From a virus: DNA of 64,000 nt. The position numbers and the translations under genes were made by a program. The stretch lies in IMG/VR virus record IMGVR_UViG_3300045988_182866; one strand, 5' to 3'. Positions 502-52,669 of this stretch are shown here, piece after piece. Position 1 is the stretch's first letter. Each line of letters begins with the position of its first letter. The notes below the pieces were generated by a model that saw only the letters and a program-made list of their open reading frames with translations, made no database searches and was not told the DNA's origin.

Positions 502-769
502 TATCAGCCAACTTTTCTAAAATCTTTTTCTTATTTTTAACCTTTTGCTTATGCTTCTTTACAAATGAAAAACATTTTGAATAAAACTTACATTCATTCT
601 TTGAACAATTACAATGAGGCCACCAATCATTTCTGCAAAATGGTAATTCTTTCCAAGAATTTTTATGAGCACCTCCATGTACTCCATCTCTTTTATCCCG
701 GGACATTAGAAATCTCTCTATATTTCTTTTGCAAATATTGCAATACTTCTTTTGGATTAGGAACATCAA
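482..769 (-). CDS. Small Cys/Lys-rich ORF (95 aa) overlapping the gp47 3' end and gp46 5' end. Doubtful.
   Basis: ORF-track only. Several CxxC-like pairs (CNICKRN, HCNCSKNEC). It overlaps two well-supported genes, so it may be spurious. Confidence 0.2.
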   Translation of the reverse strand: MMFLIQKKYCNICKRNIERFLMSRDKRDGVHGGAHKNSWKELPFCRNDWWPHCNCSKNECKFYSKCFSFVKKHKQKVKNKKKILEKLADNEVYNI

Positions 770-1730
770 GCAAACCGATATATTCTTTAATTGCTTCCAT
801 TAATTCTAAAGCAACAAAATCAGTTTTTGTATCAATAGCAGAAGAAAATCCTTTATTATCCCAGTCAATATCGCATTCCAGAGGCTGACAAGATGACAAT
901 AATTTAATAAGTTCATCCATGTCATCTACAGTAATATTCTTATCAATCGCCAGTCGAAGATAATTATTAACAATTTCTTTACCAATCTTAGAAGGTTCTT
1001 TTCTAATTAGGGAAGAAAGAGTCATCTTAATAAATTTAGGAGAAATCTCATTATAATGATAAGAATATTTTCCTGTATCTACATCAAGAATAATAAAACC
1101 TTTCTTATCTCCCGCCTCTCCATAGTTCATCTGAAAAGGATTACCTACATAAACAATAGATCCAGATGAATATTTTCTAAACTGGGCTTTATGAAAATGC
1201 CCAGAAAAAATACTATTAAATTTCTTCAATAGATCAGATAATTTAAAACCTTCTTCACAAAGATGCTCAGATGAATTCATTTGAAACGTATTAATCTCAA
1301 AATGACCGAACAAATAATCAGAAGATTCAATTTCTGGATTTAACGGATTAAATCCCCATGGACAAAGAGTAATACTTTTATCCCCGATATTCAATCTGGC
1401 AGGCTTATCATAATATTTGATATTATTATATCCTTGAAAAATAGAAGTAGAAGATACTTCAGTGCTTCCGGAAAAATACAAATCGTGATTACCTGGAAAT
1501 ATATGAATAGAAAAATCCTCCAATAACCGGAGGATTTTTGCTGTTGAATTCAAAGTATAAACATCTACCGAATTTCTGTTATGAAACCAGTCTCCAAGAA
1601 AAAATACATCTTTAATATTTTTCTCTTTGAGAGTTTTAACCATATCTTGGATAAATTCAACTGCAACACTATGCCAATGTTGATTATCTCCTTTAATTCC
1701 AAGATGTAAATCAGAAAAAATTGCTATCAT
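693..1730 (-). CDS. Recombination endonuclease subunit, T4 gp47 / SbcD-Mre11-like calcineurin-type phosphoesterase
   Basis: Metallophosphoesterase motifs DLHLG, GDWFH and GNHD. The 345-aa size matches gp47, and it sits immediately upstream of the gp46-like gene. Confidence 0.8.
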   Translation of the reverse strand: MIAIFSDLHLGIKGDNQHWHSVAVEFIQDMVKTLKEKNIKDVFFLGDWFHNRNSVDVYTLNSTAKILRLLEDFSIHIFPGNHDLYFSGSTEVSSTSIFQGYNNIKYYDKPARLNIGDKSITLCPWGFNPLNPEIESSDYLFGHFEINTFQMNSSEHLCEEGFKLSDLLKKFNSIFSGHFHKAQFRKYSSGSIVYVGNPFQMNYGEAGDKKGFIILDVDTGKYSYHYNEISPKFIKMTLSSLIRKEPSKIGKEIVNNYLRLAIDKNITVDDMDELIKLLSSCQPLECDIDWDNKGFSSAIDTKTDFVALELMEAIKEYIGLLDVPNPKEVLQYLQKKYREISNVPG

Positions 1731-1795
1731 TACTTGCCTAAAACCATTCTTTTATCTGAACTTTATCCTTTGCCGCTAAGATTCTTGAATTTCAA

Positions 1796-2977
1796 TCATT
1801 CCGCAATAAAAACCTTATTTCCTACATCCCATATCCGGTCCCAACCGTTTGCACTCATATTTTCATATTCAGATAATTTAAGATCAAAATAATTCAAAAG
1901 ACGCGGTAATTTATGTTTTTGAAATTGAACTCGGCTTTTTCGTTGAAGAGAATTATCTTTAAAATAAAAGTAATTCGGGTCAGCATCATGAATCTCCTTA
2001 AATCCAATTTGTCGATAAAGCTGACCTTGGGACCATCGACGATCGGCATATGTAATTACACTGCCTGCATTATTTCTACGAAAATATTCAAACAACTTGG
2101 AAGCTCCTCCAATTACTGTAAAATTAGCAACTGTACAATAGCGAATCAGTTCATAATCATATTTCTTGTTAAACCTGGATTTATTAAAAGTCATTACAGC
2201 CACCATGCGATTCTTATAAAATAATCCCAGATTAATGGAAGAAGCGTAAGTTCCTTGAATATGATATTTTAAAATAAATGGCTTAACTTGCTGATAAGTC
2301 AATTCGCGAACTTTACATTTACGAGCATAGATCTTTCCGGAAGTAATTCCAAGAAGATGACGAATACGGGCCTTAACAATCTGCGGCTTCAATTCCCATT
2401 CATCTTCGAATACATGAATTAACCGTACTCCTTTTTCTTCACACTTATTTGTTTCAGTCAAATGGTACCGTTTAGTAAATCCATTTCGTTCACAATGTCC
2501 TGAAAGGGAATCAAACTCAAAAGCAATCTTCTTATCTGGAATATGAATAGCAATAGTATAAGGAGCTGCTAACTCTTTATCATTCTCAATAATCCGGCCA
2601 TTATAAACACTTTTAATATAATTTATAAAATTATTATAAGACTCAGGGTTAGATACCGGCTCAACAATAGGAGCTGGTTCTTTTTTAGAAGACGTGGAAA
2701 CTTTTTTAATTTTTTCCTTCTTTTGCTTTGGTTCTTTTGGAGCTTTGGACACTTTAGGCTCTGTATTTTTCCTTAATGCTTCAATAGCACATTGCCTGCA
2801 TCCATACTTGGAACGTATAAAATGCTGGGTTAAACAAAAGAAAGATCCATGATCCTTGCAAATAATTTCAACCGGTTTCCTGTTACTTTGATAATCAACT
2901 TTAGAGTAATCAAATTGATCTCCAAATTTTTCAAGGCAGAATTTAATAAAAGCTTCCTTACGTTGTTCTTTTTTCAT
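1796..2977 (-). CDS. Homing-endonuclease-like protein: one N-terminal Zn-ribbon repeat, a Lys-rich linker, a DUF559/Vsr-like PD-(D/E)xK nuclease domain, and an extra ~200-aa C-terminal domain of unknown function
   Basis: N-terminal FIKFCLEKFGDQFDYSKVDY...IICKDHGSFFC..H....GCRQC matches the repeat family seen at 4864-5547, 28588, 44277 and 45199. KIAFEFDSLSGH...GVRLIHVFEDEW resembles the ELKLA[IL]EYNGxxWH...IEVW DUF559 motif of the other copies. Confidence 0.6.
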   Translation of the reverse strand: MKKEQRKEAFIKFCLEKFGDQFDYSKVDYQSNRKPVEIICKDHGSFFCLTQHFIRSKYGCRQCAIEALRKNTEPKVSKAPKEPKQKKEKIKKVSTSSKKEPAPIVEPVSNPESYNNFINYIKSVYNGRIIENDKELAAPYTIAIHIPDKKIAFEFDSLSGHCERNGFTKRYHLTETNKCEEKGVRLIHVFEDEWELKPQIVKARIRHLLGITSGKIYARKCKVRELTYQQVKPFILKYHIQGTYASSINLGLFYKNRMVAVMTFNKSRFNKKYDYELIRYCTVANFTVIGGASKLFEYFRRNNAGSVITYADRRWSQGQLYRQIGFKEIHDADPNYFYFKDNSLQRKSRVQFQKHKLPRLLNYFDLKLSEYENMSANGWDRIWDVGNKVFIAE

Positions 2978-2998
2978 AGAATGAATATAACTAATTTC

Positions 2999-3634
2999 TC
3001 AATTTTTAAAGGTGCGCAGATTACACACTTTATTTTTAGTATGTATCTTGGTAAACAACAAATTTTCTATAGATTTTCTATTATTTTTCCAGTCTCTTTC
3101 TTCGACATTTATTAGTAGAATATTTGCTTCTTTACAACGCCTTTCCTTTTCGGCATGACAGCCAGGCTGTCTTTCTTCTTTAAGTTTATGCCAGTGAGAT
3201 CCATTATATTCAATGCCAATTCTTAATTCGGGAAGAAATATGTCAAGCTCCATTCTTCCTATTTGAGTCTTATCATTTTCAAGAACTTCTCCCGAATAAA
3301 TTGACTTAATATATGCACAAACTTCTTTTTCTCCTCTAGATGTCTGTTTAGATAAGGCACATATTGGACAACCTTGTTGAAGATACCAATGACTAGACGG
3401 TATTTGTTGAAATACTCCGTGTACAGGACATATGATATTAACCTTAGAATGTGCGTTTACATAATTTACTAAAGAATAATCATATTTTTCTCCATGAACT
3501 TTTCTAGACCTCTTAATAAATTCATCAATTGTTAACTTTTCAAAACCAAAACATTTAGGACACCCTGAGCCATTTAAATGACTATTTGGTTTTTGCCAAA
3601 AAATACCATGTTTAGGACAAATAATTGATAGTTG
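2999..3634 (-). pseudogene. 3' fragment of an interrupted Zn-ribbon/DUF559 homing-endonuclease-like gene: partial repeat + full repeat + DUF559 domain. The frame is open from a stop at 3635-3637 with no ATG until 3253.
   Basis: Minus-strand translation from 3625: IICPKHGIFWQKPNSHLNGSGCPKC..FIKRSRKVHGEKYDYSLVNYV..IICPVHG...MELDIFLPELRIGIEYNGSHWH. It begins mid-repeat exactly at the IS right end. The ORF track reports only the ATG-initiated 84-aa tail (2999..3253). Confidence 0.75.
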
Positions 3635-4863
3635 CTAATTTCAATGAAATTCATTGAAAATTAACTTATTTTATCATGGGGACCATATACTCCCAAGCGA
3701 AGGATATTGATAGCAGCATTAATATCAGCATCAAATGTTCCTCCACAAGTCTTACAGTGATATACTTCACCTTGTCGACTCGACTTATCAACAGTATTAC
3801 AAACGTGGCATCGTTGAGATGTATAAGCAGGAGGAACTTTAATCAACTGGAAACCTTCCGTCTCAGAAAGTGACTCAAACTTATTCATTACTTTAATGTA
3901 ACTCCACCTTTGTAACTTGTTGTTAAACTTTTTAGAAAACTTTGATTTGTACTTAATGCATTTAAGATTCTCGATAATTACTTGCCCACAATCTTTATGT
4001 TCGTTATAAAATTTCTTAACGGCTAGATTGATTGCTTCATCACGCTCCCTAAGAGCTCGTTTGAAAGCTTTAGACCGTTGTTTCTTGCGAGAAATCTTTT
4101 CATAAATGTCCTCAAGTTCTTTACCATAAACCTTTCCATCACTACATGCGAGTAACTTTTTGTAACCACAATCAACTCCTGCTGATAATTTATTCTTTTT
4201 CTTTTCAGCTTCTTCTTTTTCCCAAAATAATTTCAACGAGAAATTATCAGACAGCATGAAACTATTTTTTAATTTCCAACCATTATTTTTGAACCTCAAA
4301 CTTACTCGATGATGATTGATTGGAAGTTTAAGTAGTATAGCTCGATGTTTTGTCTCTTGAAAATATGGTGAAAATATCTTGATGAAACAGTCAAACTCCT
4401 TAGTCTTATCCTCTTCAATATCCCATAGCATATAGTTAAGATTAATACTATGGGATTTAATTACTGACTCAGTAATCTTCTTAATTCTTTTTTTCTTAAG
4501 TAAAGTAACTTGCGAACGGTAAATCTGTGAGGCCTCTCGATAACATAACGCTCTCCATCTACTATTAGAAATATCATTTAATTGTGGGCAAAACTTACTT
4601 GAAAGATTTTGTTTCAATGGTAATTCACCATCATGAATTTTATGAAGATATAACTGAAGCAACTCTTTATAATCCTTAATAATCTTCCAGTACAAATCGA
4701 TTTTATCTCGATTTGCATACTTAAGTGTATGGGAAGATGAACGAATCACTTTGTTAACATTTTTATCTAGCAAGGTAAAATTAAAACTTAGATATTTTTT
4801 TAAGAAAAAATGAAAATTTTGATTATAAATTCATTTTATTTCTTTGAAACTAATGAATAATTA
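3635..4863 (-). mobile_element. IS200/IS605-family insertion sequence, tnpB-only (IS1341-like), inserted into a homing-endonuclease-like gene
   Basis: TnpB ORF plus a perfect subterminal hairpin immediately after the tnpB stop (plus strand 3637-3659: TTCAATGAA-A-TTCATTGAA). An imperfect hairpin lies near the other end (~4820-4855: ATTCATT...AATGAAT). The flanking coding sequence on both sides belongs to the same repeat-protein family. Exact termini are not determined. Confidence 0.75.
3661..4773 (-). CDS. tnpB: TnpB (IS605 OrfB-type RNA-guided nuclease/transposase accessory protein)
   Basis: C-terminal PPAYTSQRCHVCNTVDKSSRQGEVYHCKTCGGTFDADINAAINIL carries the RuvC-III motif and CxxC...CxxC zinc finger diagnostic of TnpB/OrfB. 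370 aa. Confidence 0.85.
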   Translation of the reverse strand: MLDKNVNKVIRSSSHTLKYANRDKIDLYWKIIKDYKELLQLYLHKIHDGELPLKQNLSSKFCPQLNDISNSRWRALCYREASQIYRSQVTLLKKKRIKKITESVIKSHSINLNYMLWDIEEDKTKEFDCFIKIFSPYFQETKHRAILLKLPINHHRVSLRFKNNGWKLKNSFMLSDNFSLKLFWEKEEAEKKKNKLSAGVDCGYKKLLACSDGKVYGKELEDIYEKISRKKQRSKAFKRALRERDEAINLAVKKFYNEHKDCGQVIIENLKCIKYKSKFSKKFNNKLQRWSYIKVMNKFESLSETEGFQLIKVPPAYTSQRCHVCNTVDKSSRQGEVYHCKTCGGTFDADINAAINILRLGVYGPHDKIS

Positions 4864-5547
4864 TTATATTTTTTTCTGAGAATGCTCATAACTTACTTGA
4901 GAATAATCATAAAGAGTACCATGAACTTTTCTTGCTTTCTGAATAAAATCTTCAGTCGTTACTAACTCTTTATTTCCACATTTTGGACAACCACACCCAT
5001 TAAGATGGGAATTAGGTGTTTGCTGAAATATATGTCCACACTTTTTACATTTAATTTTTACCTTAACTTTATTACCCTGGTAATCCACTTCAGAATAATC
5101 AAATTTATCACCGTGTACTTTACTAGCTTTTTCAATAAATTCTTTAGTTGTAGATTTATTGTTATTAGAGCAAAAAGGACATCCAAAACCTTTCATATGG
5201 CTTTGTGCCTGCTGTTCAAATATATGCCCACATTTTTTACATTTAATTTTTACTTTAAGCTTATTGCCTTGATAATCTACTTCAGAATAATCAAATTTAT
5301 TGCCATGAACTTTTTGGGACTTTTCAATAAATTCTTTAGTTGTTAGCTTCTTAACACCAGCACATTCTAAACATCCGCATCCCTGGACATGGCTATAAGC
5401 TTTTTGCTGAAAAGAACCGTGAATAGGACATATTATTGTTATGACATTATGAGCTCCTGTATAAAAAGTCTCAGAATAATCATATTTGTTTCCATGAACC
5501 TCTGTACATTCTTTAATAAATTGCTCATTTGATTTTAATTTTGCCAT
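4864..5547 (-). pseudogene. 5' fragment of the same interrupted homing-endonuclease-like gene: three complete Zn-ribbon repeats plus a fourth truncated at the IS junction, no nuclease domain
   Basis: Repeats FI.K...VHG[ND]K[FY]DYS.V.Y.....[VK][IV].I.C..[HC]G.F.Q....H..G.GC..C. The last repeat ends ...VHGTLYDYSQVSYEHSQKKI-stop with the stop supplied at the IS boundary. The 3' fragment at 2999-3634 restarts with IICPKHG. Confidence 0.75.
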
Positions 5548-8863: not shown

Positions 8864-9301
8864 ATGAAGCTAAAAAGACATAAGGATATTGCCTCATTAT
8901 TCATTAACAAGAAAAAAGTTGAAGAAGACTGCGAAGGAATGACAGCAGGTTCTGTTTTAGCTCCTTCAGCCCAGGCGACTGGAGGAAATATTACAAATAC
9001 CGATTCGTATGCCCCAGGAGACAATAGAATTCCTAAGTCTTTATTCAAAACGAGGGTTATTAAACGAAAATATAAAGAAGAAGATGCTGAAGAATATCCT
9101 GAAATTCCGGCTGATTTCTTTACTGATAAGGAATGGGAAAAAATTGAAGAAGAGGCTGAAAGCCGTGGATGCAGTCCTTATGAAGTAGCTTATCGAGAAT
9201 ATAAAGCCAGAGGAGGAATGGACCAGGACCGCAAAATGACGGATATTGAAGTTCAAAAAGCATTTGATGAATTAAAATCGCATTTGGCGGATTATAATTG
9301 A
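8864..9301 (+). CDS. Hypothetical 145-aa protein sharing a ~25-aa motif with the major capsid protein N-terminal region
   Basis: ATGGNITNTDSYAPGDNRIPKSLFKTRVIKR against MCP GGAITQGDTYAKGDNRLPKILLPMIRR (42225 gene). Acidic C-terminal half. Confidence 0.5.
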   Translation: MKLKRHKDIASLFINKKKVEEDCEGMTAGSVLAPSAQATGGNITNTDSYAPGDNRIPKSLFKTRVIKRKYKEEDAEEYPEIPADFFTDKEWEKIEEEAESRGCSPYEVAYREYKARGGMDQDRKMTDIEVQKAFDELKSHLADYN

Positions 9302-9762
9302 TTCCAATGAATCAAGATTTAGGTCATTGGGTTACTTCGATAGACATCCCTGAAGAAATATTCGGGTTTGTCTATCGAATTACCAATTTGGAAAATAATA
9401 AAATGTACATCGGTAAAAAACTTTGTACATCGGTTAAAAAGCTTCCTCCATTAAAAGGTAAAACAAGAAAAAGACATAAAAAAGTAGAAACAGATTGGAA
9501 AACTTATACCGGGTCTTCTCCGGAATTAAATGAAGATATTAAAAAATTAGGCAAAGATAAATTTAAATTCGAGATTATAAAATTTTGTACCTGTAAATGG
9601 GAATTGAGTTATTTTGAAGCAAAGGCCCAATTTGAAGAAGATGTTTTATTCAAGCAAGATGAATATTACAATGGTATAATCAATTTAAGAATTGGCCGTT
9701 CGCCAAAAGAAAGTCTTGAAAAATTTAATTTATGCCAATCGAATTTAAAATCCGGAATTTAA
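9298..9762 (+). CDS. GIY-YIG domain endonuclease (Seg/I-TevI-like, short form)
   Basis: GFVYRITNLENNKMYIGKK matches the GIY-(x10)-YIG signature. Conserved R/H/E residues follow downstream (TRKRHKK..E). Confidence 0.5.
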   Translation: MIPMNQDLGHWVTSIDIPEEIFGFVYRITNLENNKMYIGKKLCTSVKKLPPLKGKTRKRHKKVETDWKTYTGSSPELNEDIKKLGKDKFKFEIIKFCTCKWELSYFEAKAQFEEDVLFKQDEYYNGIINLRIGRSPKESLEKFNLCQSNLKSGI

Positions 9763-28587: not shown

Positions 28588-29517
28588 TTGTCTATGATAA
28601 AAAGACAAAGAAGATTTTTAAACACTGAAATTTTTATAGAATTAGCAAAACAAATTCATGGAAGCAAATATGATTATTCAAAAGTCAGCTATAAAAATGC
28701 TAATACAAATGTTTTAATAATTTGTCCTATTCATGGTTTGTTCAGTCAAAATCCAAGATCTCACCTAAAAGGGTTTGGATGTGCAAAATGTTCAAATCGA
28801 ACAGCTAAGACTACTGAAGATTTTATCAAAGAATCAAAGCAGGTTCATGGAGACAAATATGATTATTCAGAAACAGTTTACGTCAATAATCACACAAATG
28901 TAAAAATCTTTTGCAAAAAAGATAAAATATTCTTTATACAAAATCCTAGAGTTCATCTTCAAGGAACGGGATGTCCCAAGTGTGCAAGAAATCAAAAGTT
29001 GACAACTAAGGGATTTATAGAAAGAGCTATAGCTATTCATGGTAACAAATATGATTATTCTTCAGTAGTTTATCAATCACATGCCAAAAAGATTATTATA
29101 ATTTGTCCTATCCATGGGCCTTTCGAGCAAAGAGCAAATGGTCATTTGAACGGCAAAGGCTGTTATAAATGTGCAAAGAGTTATAAGCGTTCAAGGGGAG
29201 AGATTGAACTTTGTAAATTTATTAAATCAATTTATTCCGGTCAAGTTTTGGAGAATGACAGAACAGTTATTAAGCCAAAAGAACTAGACATTTATCTTCC
29301 TGAATTAAAGTTGGCTCTTGAATATAATGGCGAATATTGGCATGATGAAACTAAGAAACGAAAACCGGGTTATCATAAAGAAAAGCAAAAAGCTTGTGAA
29401 AAGAAAGGCATTAAATTAATTGAGGTTTGGGATTCAGAATGGCATGCAGATAAAGATAGATTTAAAAATCTTATTCAAGAAGTAATAAATTCTATTCAAT
29501 CACCTTTAAAAATTTAG
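28588..29517 (+). CDS. Homing-endonuclease-like protein: three Zn-ribbon repeats + DUF559/Vsr-like nuclease domain (intact copy)
   Basis: Three units of ...HG.KYDYS.V.Y.....V.I.CP.HG.F.Q....HL.G.GC.KC, then ELDIYLPELKLALEYNGEYWH...GIKLIEVWDSEW (DUF559 pattern). Confidence 0.7.
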   Translation: MSMIKRQRRFLNTEIFIELAKQIHGSKYDYSKVSYKNANTNVLIICPIHGLFSQNPRSHLKGFGCAKCSNRTAKTTEDFIKESKQVHGDKYDYSETVYVNNHTNVKIFCKKDKIFFIQNPRVHLQGTGCPKCARNQKLTTKGFIERAIAIHGNKYDYSSVVYQSHAKKIIIICPIHGPFEQRANGHLNGKGCYKCAKSYKRSRGEIELCKFIKSIYSGQVLENDRTVIKPKELDIYLPELKLALEYNGEYWHDETKKRKPGYHKEKQKACEKKGIKLIEVWDSEWHADKDRFKNLIQEVINSIQSPLKI

Positions 29518-42224: not shown

Positions 42225-44135
42225 ATGAAAAAGACTCAACAAGTACAAACTCAGTCTGTTGGCGCTGCTGTTCAGCAGAACAAGCAGTTCTATCAGAACT
42301 GTGTGAATAAGTGGAAGAAGCTGCTCGTTTCTGAACACGTTGCTCCTATTGAAAATAAGCATACGCGTGCCGTTACAGCTGTTCTTCTTGAAAACCAGGC
42401 TAACGCCCTGATGGAAGATATGAACCCGAACAGCTCCAGCATTTGGGGTGCCAACGCCTCTTTTGGTGGTGCGATTACTCAAGGCGATACCTATGCGAAG
42501 GGCGACAATCGTTTACCGAAGATTCTTCTTCCGATGATTCGTCGTACGTTCCCGGAACTTATTTCCAATGAAGTTGTCGGTGTCCAGCCGATGTCCGGAC
42601 CTGTTTCCCTTGCGTTTGCTATTCGTTATCGCTATGACCAAGGGCCTCTTCATGAAGCTCGTTCTTCCGGTACGCTGACTAAGCCGCCTACGGCTGGACC
42701 TCAATACGGTGTGAATACTTTCCGTGCCGAAGATACTGCCAATCCTCCGGCTCCTGCGGATATGAAGCAGCTTGAAGCTACGGTTAAGTCCCCTGGAACT
42801 GAAATGGGTTATAACTACCTCGACACTTCCTTTACTGGTCGTCGTAACAACCTCTTTAACCGTACGATCAATAAAGAAACGGGTGCTCCTTATACCGATG
42901 CTGATATTGTAACCACTTGGAATGCTTCTGATGCTGGTGCTACCTATCGGATTAAGGCTGTTGCCGACCTTGTGATTATCTCCGGAGCTACTCCTGATGT
43001 TGAATTCACATTGTCCGACGGTACAACCAAGTATACAATTCTTGACCATGATGAAGGTAAGAAAGCGATTGCTGCTGCGAATGCTCTCTTTAAGGCTACC
43101 CACATTGCCGGTGGTAAGTTTACATTCTCTGATCAGGACCTCGGTACTGCCGCTCTCTTGGGTGACTATGAAGCTACTGGCCGTATTCCTCGTACGAAGT
43201 TTACCTTCGAGAAGAAAGCTGTTGAAGCTGGTACCCGCCGTATCGGTACCTCCTGGACGCTTGAACTCGAACAGGATATTCGTAACATGAACGGTATCGA
43301 CATCGAACAGGAAGTTACTTCCATGATGTCCTACGAACTTCAGGCCGAAATTGACCGTGAAATGATTGTTCGTATGCTCTATGCCGCTCTTTCTGCTAAT
43401 GAATATTCCTATTGGGATGGTTCTAAGGCTGATGCTCGTTGGATGGGTGAACGTGACCGCGCGTTTTATCAGTTCATCATTCAGATGGCTAACCGTATGG
43501 CTGTTCGTAACCGTCGTGGCCCAGCTAACTTCATTATCGCTACTCCGGATGTCTGCTCCTTATTGGAAACGCTTCCTCAGTATGCTATTATGGAAGTTAA
43601 CGGTACGATCTCTACGGATAGTTCCGGTATTGCTAAGGTTGGTACAATCGGTAATGGCCGATTCACTGTCTTCCGTGATACCCGTACGCCTGTTCAGAAT
43701 AATTCCTGGATGAATAATTCCTGGGATAATCAAGGACAGTATACCATTGGTGGAGAAGCTCGTACTCAGGGTATTCCGGACTTTGCTCTACTTGGCTATA
43801 AGGGTAGCGAATACTGGGACGCAGGCATTCTGTTTTGTCCGTACATCCCAATACTCCTGCAAAGGGTTGTGGATCCTGTGTCGTTTGAACCTCAGGTTGG
43901 TTTAATGACCCGATATGGTGTTGTTGATAACCTTTTTGGCGCCAATCTCTATTATCATGTCGTATTAATCGATACGCTCGGAAATAGCTTGCCGCCGTCT
44001 GGCGCTCCTGCCAATAACTGGCCTGGAACATTCCCGAATGGTTCCGCTCTTACTGATGTTCGTCAGCAAGGTGGTTATCCGGTTCAGGTTACCAACACTC
44101 CTGAAAATCCGGTTAATACGAAGCCTATTGCTTAA
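42225..44135 (+). CDS. Major capsid protein, T4 gp23 homologue
   Basis: NKWKKLL...ENQ...FPELISNEVVGVQPMSGPVSLAFAIRYRY aligns with T4 gp23 NKWKPLL...ENQ...IPNLIAFDICGVQPMNSPTGQVFALRAVY. 636 aa. GC content is much higher than the surrounding DNA. Confidence 0.85.
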   Translation: MKKTQQVQTQSVGAAVQQNKQFYQNCVNKWKKLLVSEHVAPIENKHTRAVTAVLLENQANALMEDMNPNSSSIWGANASFGGAITQGDTYAKGDNRLPKILLPMIRRTFPELISNEVVGVQPMSGPVSLAFAIRYRYDQGPLHEARSSGTLTKPPTAGPQYGVNTFRAEDTANPPAPADMKQLEATVKSPGTEMGYNYLDTSFTGRRNNLFNRTINKETGAPYTDADIVTTWNASDAGATYRIKAVADLVIISGATPDVEFTLSDGTTKYTILDHDEGKKAIAAANALFKATHIAGGKFTFSDQDLGTAALLGDYEATGRIPRTKFTFEKKAVEAGTRRIGTSWTLELEQDIRNMNGIDIEQEVTSMMSYELQAEIDREMIVRMLYAALSANEYSYWDGSKADARWMGERDRAFYQFIIQMANRMAVRNRRGPANFIIATPDVCSLLETLPQYAIMEVNGTISTDSSGIAKVGTIGNGRFTVFRDTRTPVQNNSWMNNSWDNQGQYTIGGEARTQGIPDFALLGYKGSEYWDAGILFCPYIPILLQRVVDPVSFEPQVGLMTRYGVVDNLFGANLYYHVVLIDTLGNSLPPSGAPANNWPGTFPNGSALTDVRQQGGYPVQVTNTPENPVNTKPIA

Positions 44136-44160: not shown

Positions 44161-44196
44161 AAATCCCGATGAGAATTGATCTCATCGGGATTTTTA
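44161..44196 (+). terminator. Rho-independent terminator after the MCP gene
   Basis: AAATCCCGATGAGA-attg-ATCTCATCGGGATTT followed by TTATTTT. Confidence 0.8.
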
Positions 44197-44276
44197 TTTT
44201 ATACCTGTCCAAACCACCTATTATTTTTCAGACATTTATTAAATTAAAAAAAAAGAATTTAATTTTAATTTATAAA

Positions 44277-45254
44277 ATGCCAAAGAAGCTTTCGCAAGAA
44301 GAATTTATTGAACGATGTAAAAAGAAACATAATAATTATTACAGTTATGATAAAACAGTTTATACTGGTATGAGCAATGATGACTATATTATTGTAACTT
44401 GCCCTATTCATGGTGACTTTAAACAACTGGCTGCCGGACATATACGAGGAAAAGGCTGTAAAGATTGTGCCGGAACCATTACCAAAACTACTGAACAATT
44501 TATCATAGACGCCAGAAAAGTTCATGGAGATGAATATGATTATTCAAAATCAAAATATATTAATGCAATGACATATATTGAAATCATTTGTCGAAAACAT
44601 GGTTCATTCTGGCAAAAACCTAATACTCATTTAATCGGCAAAGGATGTTTTGAATGTTATGGCTCTAAAATGCTAACACAGGAAGAGTTTATCAATCGCT
44701 GTATTGAAAAACATAATGGGTTTTATATCTATGACAAAACAGTTTATACAGGTTGTAATTATACAATTACCATTACTTGTCCTGTCCATGGCGATTTTCA
44801 ACAAAAAGCAGGAGCCCATTTATATGGGCAAGGATGCAGTCAATGTGCTCATTTAATTTCTACTCAAGAGCTTGAACTTAGAGAATTTCTCGGAACAATT
44901 TATGAAAATGAAATGATTTTTAATTCAAGAGCTTTTATTAAGCCCAAAGAATTAGACATTTACCTTCCTGATATAAAAACTGCCTTTGAATATAATGGGA
45001 ATTATTGGCATGCTCTATATGAAGAAAATGATCCAGGGTACCATGACTATAAAAGGCAACTTTGTAAAAATGCCGGAATTACTTTAATTGAAGTATGGGG
45101 AAATGACTGGACTGAATTTAATAAAGAAACCAAAAATGAAATTAAAGATTTTTTCTCAGCAAAAAGGTTAAAAGAGTATAAGCATATACAGATAAGCAAT
45201 GCCGAAGAAGCAAACATTAGAAGAATTTATCAAGAAATCAAATATTGCCCATAA
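44277..45254 (+). CDS. Homing-endonuclease-like protein: three Zn-ribbon repeats + DUF559 nuclease domain. Start taken at MPKKLSQ; the tracked ORF begins at 44169 inside the terminator.
   Basis: Repeats ...IIVTCPIHGDF.Q.A.GHIRGKGCKDC.. etc. ELDIYLPDIKTAFEYNGNYWH...GITLIEVWGNDW. Confidence 0.7.
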   Translation: MPKKLSQEEFIERCKKKHNNYYSYDKTVYTGMSNDDYIIVTCPIHGDFKQLAAGHIRGKGCKDCAGTITKTTEQFIIDARKVHGDEYDYSKSKYINAMTYIEIICRKHGSFWQKPNTHLIGKGCFECYGSKMLTQEEFINRCIEKHNGFYIYDKTVYTGCNYTITITCPVHGDFQQKAGAHLYGQGCSQCAHLISTQELELREFLGTIYENEMIFNSRAFIKPKELDIYLPDIKTAFEYNGNYWHALYEENDPGYHDYKRQLCKNAGITLIEVWGNDWTEFNKETKNEIKDFFSAKRLKEYKHIQISNAEEANIRRIYQEIKYCP

Positions 45255-45849
45255 TTTCAAGTACAACTATGATAAATCAATTTATATCAACAAACAAACA
45301 AAAGTAATCGTAATATGCCCGGAACATGGAGATTTTGAGGTTACTCCAGGCGCTCATTATATTTTAAAAAGCGGATGTCCAGAATGTGCAAAAATATCTC
45401 GTTCCAAAACAAAATCAAAAGGATTAGAAAAGTTCATTAAACAAGCTAATCTAAAGTGGAATAGCTTTTATAATTATTCCAAAGTCAACTATATCAATAA
45501 TTATACTAAAGTAGAAATTATTTGTCCAATTCATGGTTCATTTTTTAAAGATCCTAGATCTCATATTGACCCACAAAGATATGGAGGCTGCCAAAGCTGT
45601 TCAAAAGAAAGACTTAGCAAAATAATATCTAAAGTTCAGCAGCAAAAACCAAAAGGGACAAATAGAGAAGCTTTTATTGACTATTGTAATGGCATTCATA
45701 ATAACAAATATTCTTATGATAAAATGAATTATGTGAATATGATGACTCCAATTGAAATCATATGTCCTATTCATGGAACTTTTACTCAAGATTGTTTCTT
45801 TAGACCAGAAAAAATAGATATACAAAAGAAACTCTTGAATTTTGCTTAA
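45199..45849 (+). CDS. Homing-endonuclease-like paralogue lacking a nuclease domain, with a degenerate last repeat. It overlaps the previous gene by 56 nt in another frame.
   Basis: MPKKQTLEEFIKKS... N-terminus parallels MPKKLSQEEFIERC of the neighbour. Repeats VIVICPEHGDF..TPGAHYILKSGCPEC and EIICPIHGSF...H.....GGCQSC. The third repeat (IICPIHGTFTQDCFFRP) has lost the CxxC. Confidence 0.55.
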   Translation: MPKKQTLEEFIKKSNIAHNFKYNYDKSIYINKQTKVIVICPEHGDFEVTPGAHYILKSGCPECAKISRSKTKSKGLEKFIKQANLKWNSFYNYSKVNYINNYTKVEIICPIHGSFFKDPRSHIDPQRYGGCQSCSKERLSKIISKVQQQKPKGTNREAFIDYCNGIHNNKYSYDKMNYVNMMTPIEIICPIHGTFTQDCFFRPEKIDIQKKLLNFA

Positions 45850-49795: not shown

Positions 49796-52669
49796 ATGTT
49801 GAATGGATTAGAAGATGTATTAAAGGCAGATACAGCAAAGAGTACAAAAATTGATTGTACACAGTCAGTAGAAGAATATATTAATAAAAGTGACTGGCGT
49901 ATATTTGCTAATGCTAATACAGGATATAGTAATGCTGGATTAGTAAATGGACTAGCTGGTAAAGTAATAGCCAATTATTGGTTAGATAAAGTTTATTCAA
50001 AAAAAGAGGGTGATGCACATAGAAATGGCGATTATCACATTCATGATTTAGATTGTTTAAGTGGTTATTGTTGTGGTCATGATTTACAACGATTATTAAA
50101 TGAGGGTTTTAATGGTGTAGTGGGAAGAGTAGGTTCAAAAGCACCAAAACATTTTAGAGAAGCTTTATATCAAATGGCTAATTTCATTGGTATTTTACAA
50201 GCTGAATGGGGTGGTGCTCAAGCGTTTAGTTCTTTTGATACATATCTTGCACCTTATGTTTTTTTTGATATGTATTATAGTGGTTTAACTTATAAAGATA
50301 TTAAGAAAGCCATCTTAAATTTCATTTATAATTTAAATGTGCCATCACGCTGGGGACAATCTCCGTTTTCAAATATTACAATTGACTGGATTGTCCCTAA
50401 TGATATGTCTGCCCAATATCCTCTAAGAAATGATAAGAATTATTTTAAAACAATTTATGAAGATTTATCAGATGAAGAAAAAACAAAATTTAGAACGACA
50501 GTTATTGAAGAACTTAAAAAACGTTTAGAGAATATAGAAAATTCTATAGATAGTCTATTTGATAAAATAACATATAAGTTATTTCAAAAAGAAATGAATC
50601 TTATTAATAAAGCTTTTTATGAATGTTTAAACGAGGGCGATATTAATGGATTACCTTTTACATTCCCAATTCCTACAGTTAATATTACAGAAAATTTTGA
50701 TTGGGATGGAGAAAATACTGATCTTCTTTTTGAAAATGCTGCAAAATATGGATCTTCTTATTTCCAAAATTTTATTGGTTCGCAATATAAACGAGATGAA
50801 AATGGTAATTTAGTTCCTGATCCAAATGCTTATAGTCCAAATGATGTACGAAGTATGTGTCCACTAACTGGTGATACGGAAGTATTAACACTTAGTAACA
50901 GAGGTATTAGTAAGACACAAATAGTACATTTAAATGAAAATAGCCATAAAGTATTTTCTAATGGAAATTGGTTTAATTTTAAACGTATCGAAATTAAGCC
51001 ACAAAAAGTATATGAAATTAAATTATCAAATGGTACTTCTATAAAAATGGGAGAACATCATTTACAACCAATATATGGTAGTACTAAAGAATGTAAAGAT
51101 CTTAAAGTTGGTGATTTAATACCATTTAATAGTCAAATAATTAATTGGGACAAAGCTGTTGGTGATTATCATCTTGGTTATGCAATCGGTGCTTATTATG
51201 GTGATGGCTCAACCGATGGTAATACTGTAATATATTCTCTTTCTGTTGATGAAAAAGATAATATAACTGAAGAAAAATTACGAAAATTTTGGACTTCTAA
51301 TGGGTATCATGTTAAAACAATAAATGTTAACAATGTTCGTTCAATAGTGGTTACTGGAAATGCTTTTAATTTAATTGGACGATTTTGTAGTGGTAATAAT
51401 GCTCTTACTAAAGGTATTCACAGTTTAGCATTTAGTTTATCAGTAGATGCTCGTCAGGGAATTATAGATGGATATATTGCTACAGATGGTAATAAAGATC
51501 GCAGGCGAATTAGTACTTCATCCCAAGCAATGGTTAATGATTTATTAACTTTGTTTACTTTACAGGGTAAAAAAGCTTTATTATCATCTATAGATAATCG
51601 TGAAAATCGTCTAGGAAGTAATCCAAATTATATTGTTTCTTATCCTGAAAAAGACAATTATAGTGATTTTTATCAAACTATTGATGGTATAATATATTTT
51701 ATAATTAAAGAAATAAAAGAAATTCCGCAACAAAAACTTTATTGTATTGAGGTTGATAATGAAGATCATACATTTGTATTAGGTAACGGGATGATTACGC
51801 ATAATTGTCGTCTTCAATTAGATAAGCGAGAATTACGAAAACGTGGAGGAGGCTTATTTGGTTCAGATGCACAAACTGGCAGCATAGGCGTAGTAACAAT
51901 TAATATGGCCCGCCTTGGCTATCTTTACAAAGGTAACTTTCCGCTTCTTAAGAAAAAACTTATTCATTTAATGGAATTGGCTAAATCGACTTTAGAAAAA
52001 AAGCGTTCTTTTATTAATGAATTATATCTAAGAGGATTATACCCATATACAAGACGATATCTTAAAGGCTTTAATACATTTTTTAGTACAATCGGCGTTA
52101 ATGGAATGAATGAAATGGTTCGTAATTTTTCAAATGACGAATATGATATTACTTCATATGAAGGCCAGAAAATGTGTATAGAACTATTAGATTTAATTCG
52201 CTCTAAAATGTCTGATTATCAAGAAGAAACTGGAAATCTTTATAACCTTGAAGCTACCCCGGCAGAAGGAACAACTTATCGATTTGCCAAAGAGGATATT
52301 AAACGTTTTCCGGACATTATTCATGCTGGTACTGAAAAAGAACCTTACTATACAAATAGCTCTCAGCTCCCGGTAAATTTTACGGATGATCCCTTTGAAG
52401 CACTTGATAAGCAAGATGAGCTTCAATGCAAATATACTGGTGGTACAGTAATCCATTTATATATGACAGAAAGACTTTCTAATGCAACAGCTTGTAAAAA
52501 TCTTATAAAAAAGGTACTTACAAATTATCGCTTGCCATATATATCTATAACTCCAACATATTCTACATGTCCAATACATGGTTATATTCCTGGAAATCAT
52601 GAATTTTGTCCAAAATGTGACCAAATAATTTTAGAAGAATATGCTAAAGAAATTGATTTTAACGAATAA
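49796..52669 (+). CDS. nrdD: Anaerobic ribonucleoside-triphosphate reductase NrdD (class III), interrupted in frame by an intein and lacking the glycyl-radical tail, which is encoded by the next ORF
   Basis: Class III RNR layout. C-terminal Zn ribbon CPIHGYIPGNHEFCPKCD. 957 aa, of which 316 aa are intein, leaving ~641 aa of extein (T4 NrdD is ~605 aa). Adjacent to nrdG. Confidence 0.8.
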   Translation: MLNGLEDVLKADTAKSTKIDCTQSVEEYINKSDWRIFANANTGYSNAGLVNGLAGKVIANYWLDKVYSKKEGDAHRNGDYHIHDLDCLSGYCCGHDLQRLLNEGFNGVVGRVGSKAPKHFREALYQMANFIGILQAEWGGAQAFSSFDTYLAPYVFFDMYYSGLTYKDIKKAILNFIYNLNVPSRWGQSPFSNITIDWIVPNDMSAQYPLRNDKNYFKTIYEDLSDEEKTKFRTTVIEELKKRLENIENSIDSLFDKITYKLFQKEMNLINKAFYECLNEGDINGLPFTFPIPTVNITENFDWDGENTDLLFENAAKYGSSYFQNFIGSQYKRDENGNLVPDPNAYSPNDVRSMCPLTGDTEVLTLSNRGISKTQIVHLNENSHKVFSNGNWFNFKRIEIKPQKVYEIKLSNGTSIKMGEHHLQPIYGSTKECKDLKVGDLIPFNSQIINWDKAVGDYHLGYAIGAYYGDGSTDGNTVIYSLSVDEKDNITEEKLRKFWTSNGYHVKTINVNNVRSIVVTGNAFNLIGRFCSGNNALTKGIHSLAFSLSVDARQGIIDGYIATDGNKDRRRISTSSQAMVNDLLTLFTLQGKKALLSSIDNRENRLGSNPNYIVSYPEKDNYSDFYQTIDGIIYFIIKEIKEIPQQKLYCIEVDNEDHTFVLGNGMITHNCRLQLDKRELRKRGGGLFGSDAQTGSIGVVTINMARLGYLYKGNFPLLKKKLIHLMELAKSTLEKKRSFINELYLRGLYPYTRRYLKGFNTFFSTIGVNGMNEMVRNFSNDEYDITSYEGQKMCIELLDLIRSKMSDYQEETGNLYNLEATPAEGTTYRFAKEDIKRFPDIIHAGTEKEPYYTNSSQLPVNFTDDPFEALDKQDELQCKYTGGTVIHLYMTERLSNATACKNLIKKVLTNYRLPYISITPTYSTCPIHGYIPGNHEFCPKCDQIILEEYAKEIDFNE
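50858..51805 (+). other. Intein (316 aa) with a LAGLIDADG-type homing endonuclease domain inside NrdD
   Basis: Begins CPLTGDTEVLTL immediately after extein ...VRSM. Ends ...GNGMITHN followed by extein CRLQLDKRE (His-Asn + Cys+1). Internal DOD motifs LGYAIGAYYGDGSTDG and QGIIDGYIATDGNKD. Confidence 0.7.

What the first reader, a model, noticed from the sequence alone, without database searches (positions are those of the whole stretch)
2999..5547. IS200/IS605-type TnpB element inserted into, and splitting, a multi-repeat homing-endonuclease-like gene
Two ORFs are fragments of one ancestral gene of the Zn-ribbon-repeat/DUF559 family. The piece at 4864-5547 holds repeats 1-4, with repeat 4 truncated after ...SYEHSQKKI. 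The piece at 2999-3634 starts mid-repeat with IICPKHG and continues through DUF559. Between them lies a 1.2-kb element (3635..4863) on the minus strand. The element has a TnpB ORF (RuvC-III plus zinc finger) and no tnpA. A perfect hairpin TTCAATGAA-A-TTCATTGAA sits immediately after the tnpB stop, and a weaker hairpin lies at the other end. The junction reconstructs ...KKI|IICPKHG, which matches the intact paralogue at 28588 (...HAKKIIIICPIHG). The DNA immediately 3' of the right end is where a TnpB omega-RNA guide would be templated. That sequence (ATTATTTGTCCTAAACATGG) is the conserved nucleotide motif encoding the IICP.HG core of this repeat family. Variants of it occur at ~5420, ~29100, ~44400 and ~45525. 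This suggests an RNA-guided element that homes into the repeat family.
Basis: seen in the sequence. Interest (0 to 1): 0.75.

Follow-up and report, generated by a model that had tools for sequence, protein, structure and literature searches.

The report
Phage TnpB insertion splitting endonuclease gene
A 1.2-kb mobile element that carries only an RNA-guided nuclease gene (TnpB) has cut a homing-endonuclease-like gene in two in a T4-like human-gut phage. Nearly identical phages keep that gene intact, which proves the insertion, but this kind of element is already known.

Summary
On the minus strand, a 1238-bp element (window 4865->3628) interrupts a 436-aa Zn-ribbon-repeat endonuclease gene. Two viral contigs whose flanks are 97-99% identical to the window carry the uninterrupted gene. 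Their junction is exactly the one I predicted before searching (AAAAAAATAT|CAATTATTTGTCC = ..QKKISIICP..).

The element has the anatomy of a TnpA-less IS200/IS605-type element:
- an intact TnpB with the D-E-D triad and zinc finger invariant across relatives;
- hairpins near both ends;
- no room for a transposase;
- a conserved 5' flank, A-R-Y-A-T, whose YAT matches the last three bases of the right end across six independent insertion sites;
- a 3' ~250-nt region with compensatory base-pair changes, compatible with an omega RNA.

Copies 99.4% identical sit at a different site (the end of a Macro-domain gene) in related phages. A 99%-identical phage carries a second family member exactly where this window has the empty site (551|550). 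The family is therefore recently mobile.

The idea that it homes into the repeat family is not supported. The paralogous sites have at least 4 of 20 mismatches to the guide and lack the 5' motif, and other copies sit in unrelated DNA.

Verdict: a new member of a known kind, and a good natural test case for TnpB homing between co-infecting phages.

The parts
4866..5547 (-). 5' fragment of the host Zn-ribbon-repeat endonuclease-like gene. The ORF as called (4864-5547, 227 aa) ends at a stop made of T4866 plus the first two element bases.
   Evidence: It aligns to residues 1-227 of the intact 436-aa orthologue in L002/L003. It hits Pfam DUF4379/DUF723 and PHROGs 559/681/3339.
4866..4870 (-). TAM-like 5' flank AATAT, directly upstream of the left end.
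   Evidence: The same position reads AATAT, AATAT, AACAT, AGCAT, AACAT and AGCAT at six independent insertion sites. The YAT always equals the last three bases of that element's right end.
3628..4865 (-). The inserted element, 1238 bp. It is a non-autonomous IS200/IS605-type element with tnpB only. The boundary is ambiguous by the 3-nt TAT.
   Evidence: It is absent from the 97-99% identical L002/L003. It is present at 94-99.4% identity at another site in L001/L084/L085.
4774..4865 (-). Non-coding left end, with an imperfect hairpin near the end (about 4844-4802, AAATGA..TCATTT).
   Evidence: centroid fold. About 90% conserved against the 74%-identical subfamily (L088, L176b).
3661..4773 (-). 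tnpB ORF, 370 aa from TTG at 4773. Relatives suggest the real start may be GTG at 4749, giving 362 aa.
   Evidence: Pfam. PDB matches to Cas12f, TnpB and CasPhi. D201, E268, D350 and the CxxC..CxxC zinc finger are invariant in 22 relatives.
3628..3870 (-). Putative omega-RNA scaffold, covering the 3' end of tnpB plus the right end. The 5' limit is not determined.
   Evidence: RNAalifold and pair counts on 10 close relatives: 96.5% of cells paired against 28-45% in slid controls, and 9 pairs with compensatory changes against at most 1. There is no Rfam match.
3628..3660 (-). Non-coding right end, with the perfect hairpin at 3640-3658 and the terminal ..TTAGCAACTAT.
   Evidence: The terminus TTAG(C/T)AAC-NNT is conserved in all close relatives.
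3608..3627 (-). Flank that would template the guide: CAATTATTTGTCCTAAACAT.
   Evidence: It lies directly 3' of the right end. It matches 20/20, with the AATAT 5' motif, only at the empty allele in L002/L003. Paralogous sites have at least 4 mismatches.
2999..3627 (-). 3' fragment of the host gene: the rest of repeat 4, repeat 5 and the C-terminal nuclease-like domain. It has no start codon of its own until Met at 3253.
   Evidence: It aligns to residues 228-436 of the intact orthologue. It gives a weak REase_MTES_1575 hit.
531..555 (-). Empty target site of a second family member: AGCAT|AAGCAAAAGGTTAAAAATAA, with the junction between 551 and 550.
   Evidence: L176 is 99.15% identical to window 3843..551. 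It carries a 71%-identical TnpB element inserted exactly here.

Best explanation
A non-autonomous IS200/IS605-type insertion sequence, carrying tnpB and a presumed omega RNA but no tnpA, sits in a free-standing homing-endonuclease-like gene of a T4-like human-gut phage and inactivates it.

Shown:
- The insertion is precise and sits 3' of an AATAT motif.
- Sister phages have the intact gene.
- Near-identical copies occupy other sites.
- A sister phage has another family member where this window is empty.

Inferred from the established behaviour of IS605-family TnpB (Karvelis 2021; Meers 2023, PMC10055086):
- The element transcribes an RNA from the 3' end of tnpB through the right end into about 16-20 nt of flank.
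- TnpB loaded with this RNA cuts DNA that has the motif followed by CAATTATTTGTCC.., which is the uninterrupted allele.
- In a cell co-infected by an occupied and an empty phage, the break is repaired by recombination with the occupied genome. The element is copied in, like a T4 homing endonuclease gene.
- Movement to new sites needs a Y1 transposase supplied in trans, whose source is unknown.
For: - The predicted empty junction was found exactly in two viral contigs whose flanks are 97-99% identical to the window, with an intact 436-aa gene.
- An independent copy at 94% identity (L001), and copies at 99.4% identity (L084/L085/L177), sit at the end of a Macro-domain gene. Homology stops exactly at the same ends.
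- Six independent sites share the A-R-Y-A-T 5' flank, with the YAT matching the right-end terminus.
- The window holds the empty site of a second family member that is inserted in a 99%-identical contig.
- The TnpB catalytic D-E-D and zinc finger are invariant, and TnpB matches solved Cas12f and TnpB structures.
- Both ends have hairpins sharing ATGAA/TTCAT.
- The 3' region shows compensatory base-pair changes.
- The window is T4-like, with Gp23 and SegE, a setting where homing by recombination is established (review PMC13565253).
- The exact TnpB protein occurs at this same site on 20 contigs read, the largest about 200 kb and named as human gut metagenome.
Against: - No transposase was found in the 64-kb window or beside any close relative. 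How new sites are reached is therefore not shown.
- The omega RNA is inferred. No Rfam family matches. The predicted structure rests on about four lineages and is not kept in 61 distant relatives (58.8% paired against about 42% in slid controls).
- The first two bases of the left end differ (AA against TG) between copies that are otherwise 99.4% identical. Simple cut-and-paste of one sequence does not predict this.
- The three bases shared by the 5' flank and the right end could also be read as a site-specific 3-bp duplication or as microhomology.
- No nuclease activity or homing has been measured.
Confidence: 0.78

Rival explanations
1. One reading: the guide matches the conserved IICP.HG-coding motif, so the element spreads by RNA-guided homing into all members of the Zn-ribbon repeat gene family.
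Against: - Against the real guide, the best paralogous sites have 4-5 of 20 mismatches, 1-3 of them in the first 12. None has a YAT 5' flank.
- No paralogue in the window carries an element.
- Other family copies lie in unrelated sequences.
- The similarity among these sites is explained by protein-level conservation of the repeat.
Confidence: 0.04
2. The element is an immobile relic. It is a dead insertion carried passively by the phage, with no current nuclease or RNA function.
For: There is no transposase in cis. All 20 contigs read that carry the exact protein have it at the same site.
Against: - The ORF is intact and the catalytic residues are invariant.
- Copies 99.4% identical occupy a second site.
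- Occupied and empty alleles exist at three sites among phages that are 97-99% identical.
- The ends are more conserved than the coding region.
Confidence: 0.1
3. The family spreads without any TnpA. It spreads only by TnpB-driven homing between phages, and new sites arise by rare microhomology-mediated capture at breaks.
For: - Across the 190 loci fetched up, a Y1 transposase lies beside only one viral relative (L065). The others are beside distant cellular ones.
- The junctions share only 3 nt with the right end.
- The left-end tip is variable.
Against: - The 5' flank motif extends beyond the 3 nt (A-R-Y-A-T).
- Both ends keep hairpins with a shared motif and are highly conserved, as expected for transposase recognition.
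- Insertions are precise to the base at three sites that have an empty allele to compare.
Confidence: 0.12
4. It is an IStron-like element that splices itself out of the mRNA, so the host gene still makes a full protein.
For: The element lies inside a coding sequence, in the same orientation as the gene.
Against: - There is no group I intron, or any other Rfam family, in the element, even at E up to 5.
- Only 92 nt lie upstream of tnpB, too little for a ribozyme core.
- The Macro-site copy lies at the very end of a gene, and the L176 copy is intergenic.
Confidence: 0.02

Closest known systems
IS200/IS605-family elements with TnpB and omega RNA (ISDra2, IS608 and their TnpA-less derivatives)
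   Same: - TnpB has the RuvC D-E-D triad and a zinc finger.
- There are no terminal inverted repeats, and there are hairpins near both ends.
- Insertion is 3' of a short conserved motif, with no duplication beyond the three bases that the flank shares with the right end.
- The RNA-coding region overlaps the tnpB 3' end and runs into the flank.
   Different: - There is no tnpA in the element, in the 64-kb window, or beside close relatives.
- The 5' motif (A-R-Y-A-T) differs from published motifs such as TTGAT and TTAC (recalled from the literature).
- The clade is carried almost only by phages.
- TnpB is distant from ISDra2 TnpB at the sequence level (E 4.5e-4, C-terminal stretch only).
Free-standing homing endonuclease genes of T4-like phages (Seg, Mob) and intron/intein homing
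   Same: - Both are selfish DNA polymorphic among closely related phages.
- The predicted spread is by cutting the empty allele in a co-infecting genome, followed by recombinational repair.
- The same genome also carries a SegE-like gene and an intein.
   Different: - Target recognition would be by RNA guide plus a short motif, not by protein.
- Self and non-self are told apart by presence or absence of the element, as in intron homing.
- Here the element has landed inside another endonuclease-like gene.
'Transposon non-restorative homing' as set out in the review PMC13565253 (2026), building on Meers et al. 2023 (PMC10055086)
   Same: This is the predicted mechanism: TnpB cuts the orthologous empty site in a co-resident replicon, and the break is repaired from the occupied copy, independently of TnpA.
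   Different: The review cites plasmid experiments and treats phages as a theoretical case. This window offers natural occupied and empty phage alleles but no functional data.
IStrons (group I intron fused to an IS605/IS607 element)
   Same: A TnpB element inside a protein-coding gene, in the gene's orientation.
   Different: No ribozyme was detected, and the left end is only 92 nt.

Membership tests
IS200/IS605 family (TnpB-bearing element) | TnpB protein with the split RuvC catalytic triad D-E-D and a CxxC..CxxC zinc finger | tested here: met
   Pfam Cas12f1-like_TNB at 3e-16, plus weak RuvC and OrfB_IS605 hits. D201, E268, D350, C322, C325, C340 and C343 are invariant in 22 relatives. PDB matches to Cas12f and TnpB. 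Assigning these residues to RuvC-I/II/III rests on known motif patterns.
IS200/IS605 family (TnpB-bearing element) | No terminal inverted repeats, and hairpins near both ends | tested here: met
   There is no long inverted repeat between the ends. The right-end hairpin is at 3640-3658 and the left-end hairpin at about 4844-4802, sharing ATGAA/TTCAT. The left-end fold is not better than shuffles (z -0.26), so that hairpin rests on conservation.
IS200/IS605 family (TnpB-bearing element) | Insertion 3' of a short conserved target motif, without a variable target-site duplication | tested here: met
   Empty and occupied alleles were compared at three sites. The 5' flank is A-R-Y-A-T at six independent sites, with YAT equal to the right-end terminus in each subfamily.
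IS200/IS605 family (TnpB-bearing element) | Y1 (HUH) TnpA transposase | tested here: not met
   There is no room in the 1238-bp element. tblastn and an HMM built from five TnpAs found nothing in the window or in the flanks of close relatives. The same search recovered TnpA beside distant relatives, which serves as a positive control. The element is therefore filed as a non-autonomous derivative, a common state for tnpB elements.
IS200/IS605 family (TnpB-bearing element) | Omega (right-end) RNA overlapping the tnpB 3' end, with the guide read from the flank | tested here: inconclusive
   The structure is conserved with 9 compensatory pairs in 10 close relatives. It is not conserved in 61 distant relatives. 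There is no Rfam family. No expression data are available.
IS200/IS605 family (TnpB-bearing element) | RNA-guided cleavage of motif-flanked target DNA | not testable with these tools
   This needs biochemistry or an in vivo interference assay.
IStron | Group I intron ribozyme at the element's 5' end | tested here: not met
   No Rfam hit at the gathering threshold in the whole window, and none at E up to 5 in 3500-5000.
Nuclease-dead domesticated TnpB (TldR-type regulators) | Loss of RuvC catalytic residues, and a fixed non-mobile genomic context | tested here: not met
   The catalytic residues are intact. The element is polymorphic and found at several sites.
IS607-type TnpB elements | Serine recombinase TnpA, and ends without hairpins | not tested
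   No serine-recombinase search was run. The hairpins and the 5' motif argue for the IS605 type.
Free-standing homing endonuclease gene (the interrupted host gene) | Nuclease domain plus DNA-binding repeats, in a phage, with patchy distribution | tested here: inconclusive
   PHROGs 559/681/3339, annotated as HNH or homing endonuclease, at 1e-19 to 1e-86. Pfam gives only Zn-ribbon DUF4379/DUF723 and a sub-threshold REase_MTES_1575 hit, with no DUF559 hit. Activity is unknown.

The most novel reading that the evidence does not exclude
A phage-restricted lineage of TnpA-less TnpB/omega-RNA elements behaves as an RNA-guided gene drive among co-infecting T4-like gut phages. Each copy cuts the empty allele in rival genomes, which copies the element in or excludes the rival. 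The empty Macro-site allele whose motif has changed from TAT to TAC (a synonymous change) would then be a drive-resistant allele. New sites may be reached without any dedicated transposase.
Probability: 0.2. Interest if true: 0.7.

Novelty: new member of a known kind. Interest (0 to 1): 0.4.

Why it matters
TnpB homing has been shown for bacterial chromosomes and plasmids. For phages it is so far an expectation. This window and its sister contigs provide natural pairs of occupied and empty alleles at three sites. The flanks are 97-99% identical, and exact predicted targets and a candidate 5' motif are in hand. Whether a solo TnpB element drives itself, or excludes competitors, during phage co-infection is therefore directly testable. 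The data also give a compact 362-370-aa TnpB with a possibly new AT-rich target motif. They show one selfish element disrupting another, which is relevant to how homing-endonuclease genes are lost from phage genomes.

Tried and rejected
- Megablast of the region against deposited phages found nothing. tblastn of TnpB found only relatives at 42% identity or less.
- Rfam found no family for the element.
- The exact predicted Macro-site empty junction with TAT was not found. A gapped pattern then found it with TAC.
- A search for a right-end to left-end circle or tandem junction in viral contigs found nothing.
- The right-end pattern scan of metagenomes also returned seven contigs (L178, L179, L181, L182, L184, L187, L189). 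There the motif lies inside an unrelated bacterial 432-aa gene, and there is no similarity to the element outside the motif. I rejected these as chance matches.
- I extended the predicted RNA structure to 61 distant relatives through a codon-threaded alignment. It is not conserved there. The first attempt had a coordinate-mapping error and was discarded.
- The species-representative genome scan gave no plausible host copy. It found one 63% hit on a 33-kb contig binned to a Bacilli MAG, and everything else was at 47% or less.
Full report
**What is in the sequence.** All features below are on the minus strand.
- An ORF of 227 aa (5547->4864) holds Zn-ribbon repeats of the type xxEFIxKAxxVHGxKYDYSxVxYxxxxxKVxIxCPxHGxFxQxPxSHLxGxGCPxC. 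It stops after ..SYEHSQKKI.
- Further downstream, an open frame from 3634 to 2999 starts QLS-IICPKHG. It continues through one more repeat and a C-terminal domain.
- Between the two lies an ORF of 370 aa (4773->3661). It hits Pfam Cas12f1-like_TNB at 3e-16, with weaker C2c1_RuvC-like and OrfB_IS605 hits. It also matches solved Cas12f, TnpB and CasPhi chains.
- The hairpin TTCAATGAA-N-TTCATTGAA is at 3640-3658. A weaker hairpin lies in the 92 nt upstream of tnpB.

**Exact ends.**
- A scan of viral contigs with the TnpB protein found one close copy, L001, on a 126.6-kb IMG/VR contig. It is 94% identical in DNA but sits in a different context, after a Macro-domain gene.
- Homology with the window runs from TAATTATTCATTAG.. 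to ..TTAGCAACTAT and stops there on both sides.
- In both copies the 5' flank reads AATAT followed by two differing bases.
- From this I predicted the empty site to be AAAAAAATAT|CAATTATTTGTCC. That would read QKKISIICP and restore the 14-residue spacing between DYS and the Cys seen in the other repeats.
- An exact-match scan found this 23-mer in two viral contigs, L002 and L003. Their flanks are 97.0-98.9% identical to the window on both sides of the insertion. They encode an uninterrupted 436-aa protein.
- L002 lies on the same contig that carries the element at the Macro site.
- The insertion is therefore window 4865->3628, 1238 bp. A 3-nt TAT is shared by the 5' flank and the element's last bases.
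A Ser codon is split, and the 5' fragment's stop codon is made from one target base plus two element bases.

**What the element is.**
- In an alignment of 22 relatives, D201 (GVDCG), E268 (IIENL), D350 (DADINAA) and the four zinc-finger cysteines are invariant. The nuclease is probably active. The assignment of these residues to RuvC motifs rests on the known TnpB pattern.
- The element has no room for a second gene.
- Motif, tblastn and HMM searches with Y1 transposases found none in the 64-kb window or in the flanks of close relatives. The query transposases were recovered beside distant TnpBs in the fetched loci, so the search does detect them.
- The gene tables of nine looked-up loci show no transposase either.
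- Rfam has no match at any threshold, and in particular no group I intron. The element is therefore not an IStron.

**Family, ends and target motif.**
- Protein searches found 664 relatives. The closest, at 55-99% identity, come from ENA and Logan metagenome assemblies. Where context was retrieved, it is phage: T4 baseplate, tail tube, amidase.
- A scan with the right-end pattern brought more copies.
- All close relatives end in TTAG(C/T)AAC-NNT.
- Six independent insertion sites have a recognisable left end. The bases just upstream of it, and the matching right-end terminus, are as follows:

| Site | 5' flank | Right end terminates in |
|---|---|---|
| window | AAATAT | ..CTAT |
| Macro site | GAATAT | ..CTAT |
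| L088 | AAACAT | ..CCAT |
| L176b | AAGCAT | ..CCAT |
| L183 | TAACAT | ..CCAT |
| L185/L188 | AAGCAT | ..CCAT |

- A short motif fixed for each subfamily, sitting 5' of the left end and mirrored at the right end, is what IS200/IS605 elements show. So is the absence of inverted repeats and of a site-dependent duplication.
- The left end is about 90% conserved between subfamilies whose overall DNA identity is about 74%. This fits recognition by a transposase.

**Evidence of recent mobility.**
- The Macro-site copies in L084, L085 and L177 are 99.4% identical to the window copy, with 6 mismatches and 1 gap in 1236 nt.
- An empty Macro site exists in L190, a contig from the same IMG sample. Its flanks are 98.4-98.8% identical. 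It reads GTTGAATAC|GCAGGAAATT, so the gene ends ..EYAGN*.
- L176 is a 136.6-kb human-gut contig, 99.15% identical to window 3843..551. It has the same insertion in the endonuclease-like gene. It also has a second element, 71% identical in DNA, inserted exactly where the window reads AAAGAAGCAT|AAGCAAAAGG (551|550, minus strand).
- Three sites are thus polymorphic among near-identical phages.
- The exact TnpB protein of the window was found on 20 contigs, and at every place returned or summarised (7 shown, 13 marked as similar) it sits at this same site. The largest is about 200 kb and is named as human gut metagenome.

**Omega RNA.**
- On ten close relatives, the last 260 nt of the element give a consensus fold of 52 pairs. 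Of cells, 96.5% are paired against 28-45% when partners are slid by 1-3 columns. Nine pairs carry changes on both sides, against at most one in the slid controls. A protein-guided codon alignment gave the same result.
- The fold includes a long-range helix between CUGCU, in the PAYTSQ codons, and UAGCA, next to the guide.
- Caveats: the ten sequences represent about four lineages, and the structure was derived from this same alignment. In 61 distant viral relatives only 58.8% of cells pair, against about 42% in controls.
- I therefore treat the RNA as likely but not shown.

**The guide and the repeat family.**
- The flank that would be read as guide is CAATTATTTGTCCTAAACAT (3627->3608).
- In the window the next-best matches are the paralogous repeat sites, with 4-5 mismatches in 20 and 1-3 in the first 12. 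Their 5' flanks are AAGTAG, ATGTTT, ATATTG, TCATAA and AGATTA, so none ends in YAT.
- Other family copies lie in unrelated DNA.
- The only perfect target is the empty allele of this site in sister phages.

**Mechanism.**
- Established knowledge for IS605-family TnpB is that the RNA-nuclease complex cuts the transposon-less site and the break is repaired from a copy that has the element (PMC10055086).
- The 2026 review PMC13565253 names the version that acts on a co-resident replicon 'non-restorative homing'. It lists co-infecting phages as possible targets on theoretical grounds, with plasmid data as support.
- The window is a T4-like phage: it has a Gp23 capsid protein, a SegE-like GIY-YIG gene, an sbcD-like nuclease and an intein in NrdD. 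Homing by recombination is the norm in such genomes.
- I infer that this element spreads between co-infecting strains in that way, and that jumps to new sites need a Y1 transposase from elsewhere. Neither step is shown.

**The host gene.**
- PHROGs place the intact protein in families annotated as HNH, endonuclease or homing endonuclease, at 1e-19 to 1e-86.
- Pfam sees the Zn-ribbon repeats (DUF4379, DUF723) and only a sub-threshold REase_MTES_1575 match in the C-terminal domain, not DUF559.
- The insertion leaves a 227-aa N-terminal product. The nuclease-like part is stranded without a start codon until 3253.

**Unexplained points.**
- The first two bases of the left end are AA in the window and L088, but TG in all Macro-site copies. 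This is despite 99.4% identity elsewhere.
- The window and L001 copies are mosaic. They are identical over the first ~680 nt, about 75-80% identical over 4040-3850, and almost identical again over the last ~190 nt. The divergent patch of each matches a different subfamily. Elements evidently recombine with one another.
- The only empty Macro-site allele differs from the occupied one at the last motif base (TAC against TAT, synonymous). This could be chance at about 1.5% divergence, or a cleavage-resistant allele.

**Verdict.**
It is wrong about homing into the repeat family.
- This is a new member of a known kind. TnpB genes in phages have been noted before (one search lists deposited phages with distant relatives).
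- Its value is as a well-defined natural system for testing TnpB homing between phages.

Noticed in passing
window 531-555 (minus strand; junction 551|550), between the sbcD-like gene (693-1730) and the next gene: This is the empty target site (AGCAT|AAGCAAAAGGTT..) of a second TnpB element of the same family. A 99.15%-identical human-gut contig (L176) has that 71%-identical element inserted exactly here.
   Followed up: yes
window 4865-4864 compared with L001 2914-2915 (also L084, L085, L177, L180): The first two bases of the left end are AA in the window copy, and in the distant L088 copy, but TG in every Macro-site copy. The rest of the element is 99.4% identical. No explanation so far.
   Followed up: partly
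window 4040-3850 compared with L001 3630-3930: Identity between element copies is mosaic: 100% over the 5' ~680 nt, about 75-80% in this patch, and near 100% at the 3' end. The window's patch matches L086/L088, and L001's patch matches L176b/L183. This points to recombination between family members.
   Followed up: partly
L190 (IMGVR_UViG_3300045988_182131), reverse strand around position 9548: The only empty Macro-site allele found reads GAATAC|GCAGG, where occupied alleles read GAATAT|..|GCAGG. It is a synonymous change at the last base of the target motif. It may be a cleavage-resistant allele or it may be chance.
   Followed up: partly
window 49796-52669 (+): The anaerobic ribonucleotide reductase NrdD is interrupted by an intein (Pfam Intein_splicing, residues ~393-670), with a LAGLIDADG-like stretch (LGYAIGAYYGDGS). 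This is another selfish element in the same genome.
   Followed up: partly
window 9298-9762 (+); 1796-2977 (-); 28588-29517, 44169-45254, 45199-45849 (+): There is a SegE-like GIY-YIG endonuclease gene and four more genes with the same Zn-ribbon repeats. The one at 45199-45849 ends without the C-terminal nuclease-like domain and overlaps its neighbour by 56 nt, so it may also be truncated.
   Followed up: no
window 42225-44135 (+): The Gp23-type major capsid gene sits in a 2-kb block of 45% G+C, in a genome that averages about 30%.
   Followed up: no
protein cluster of the window's TnpB: One partial member of the 90% cluster is deposited as a protein of a Candidatus Gastranaerophilales bacterium MAG, on a 31.7-kb contig. 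This is a possible hint to the host, or a mis-binned phage contig.
   Followed up: no
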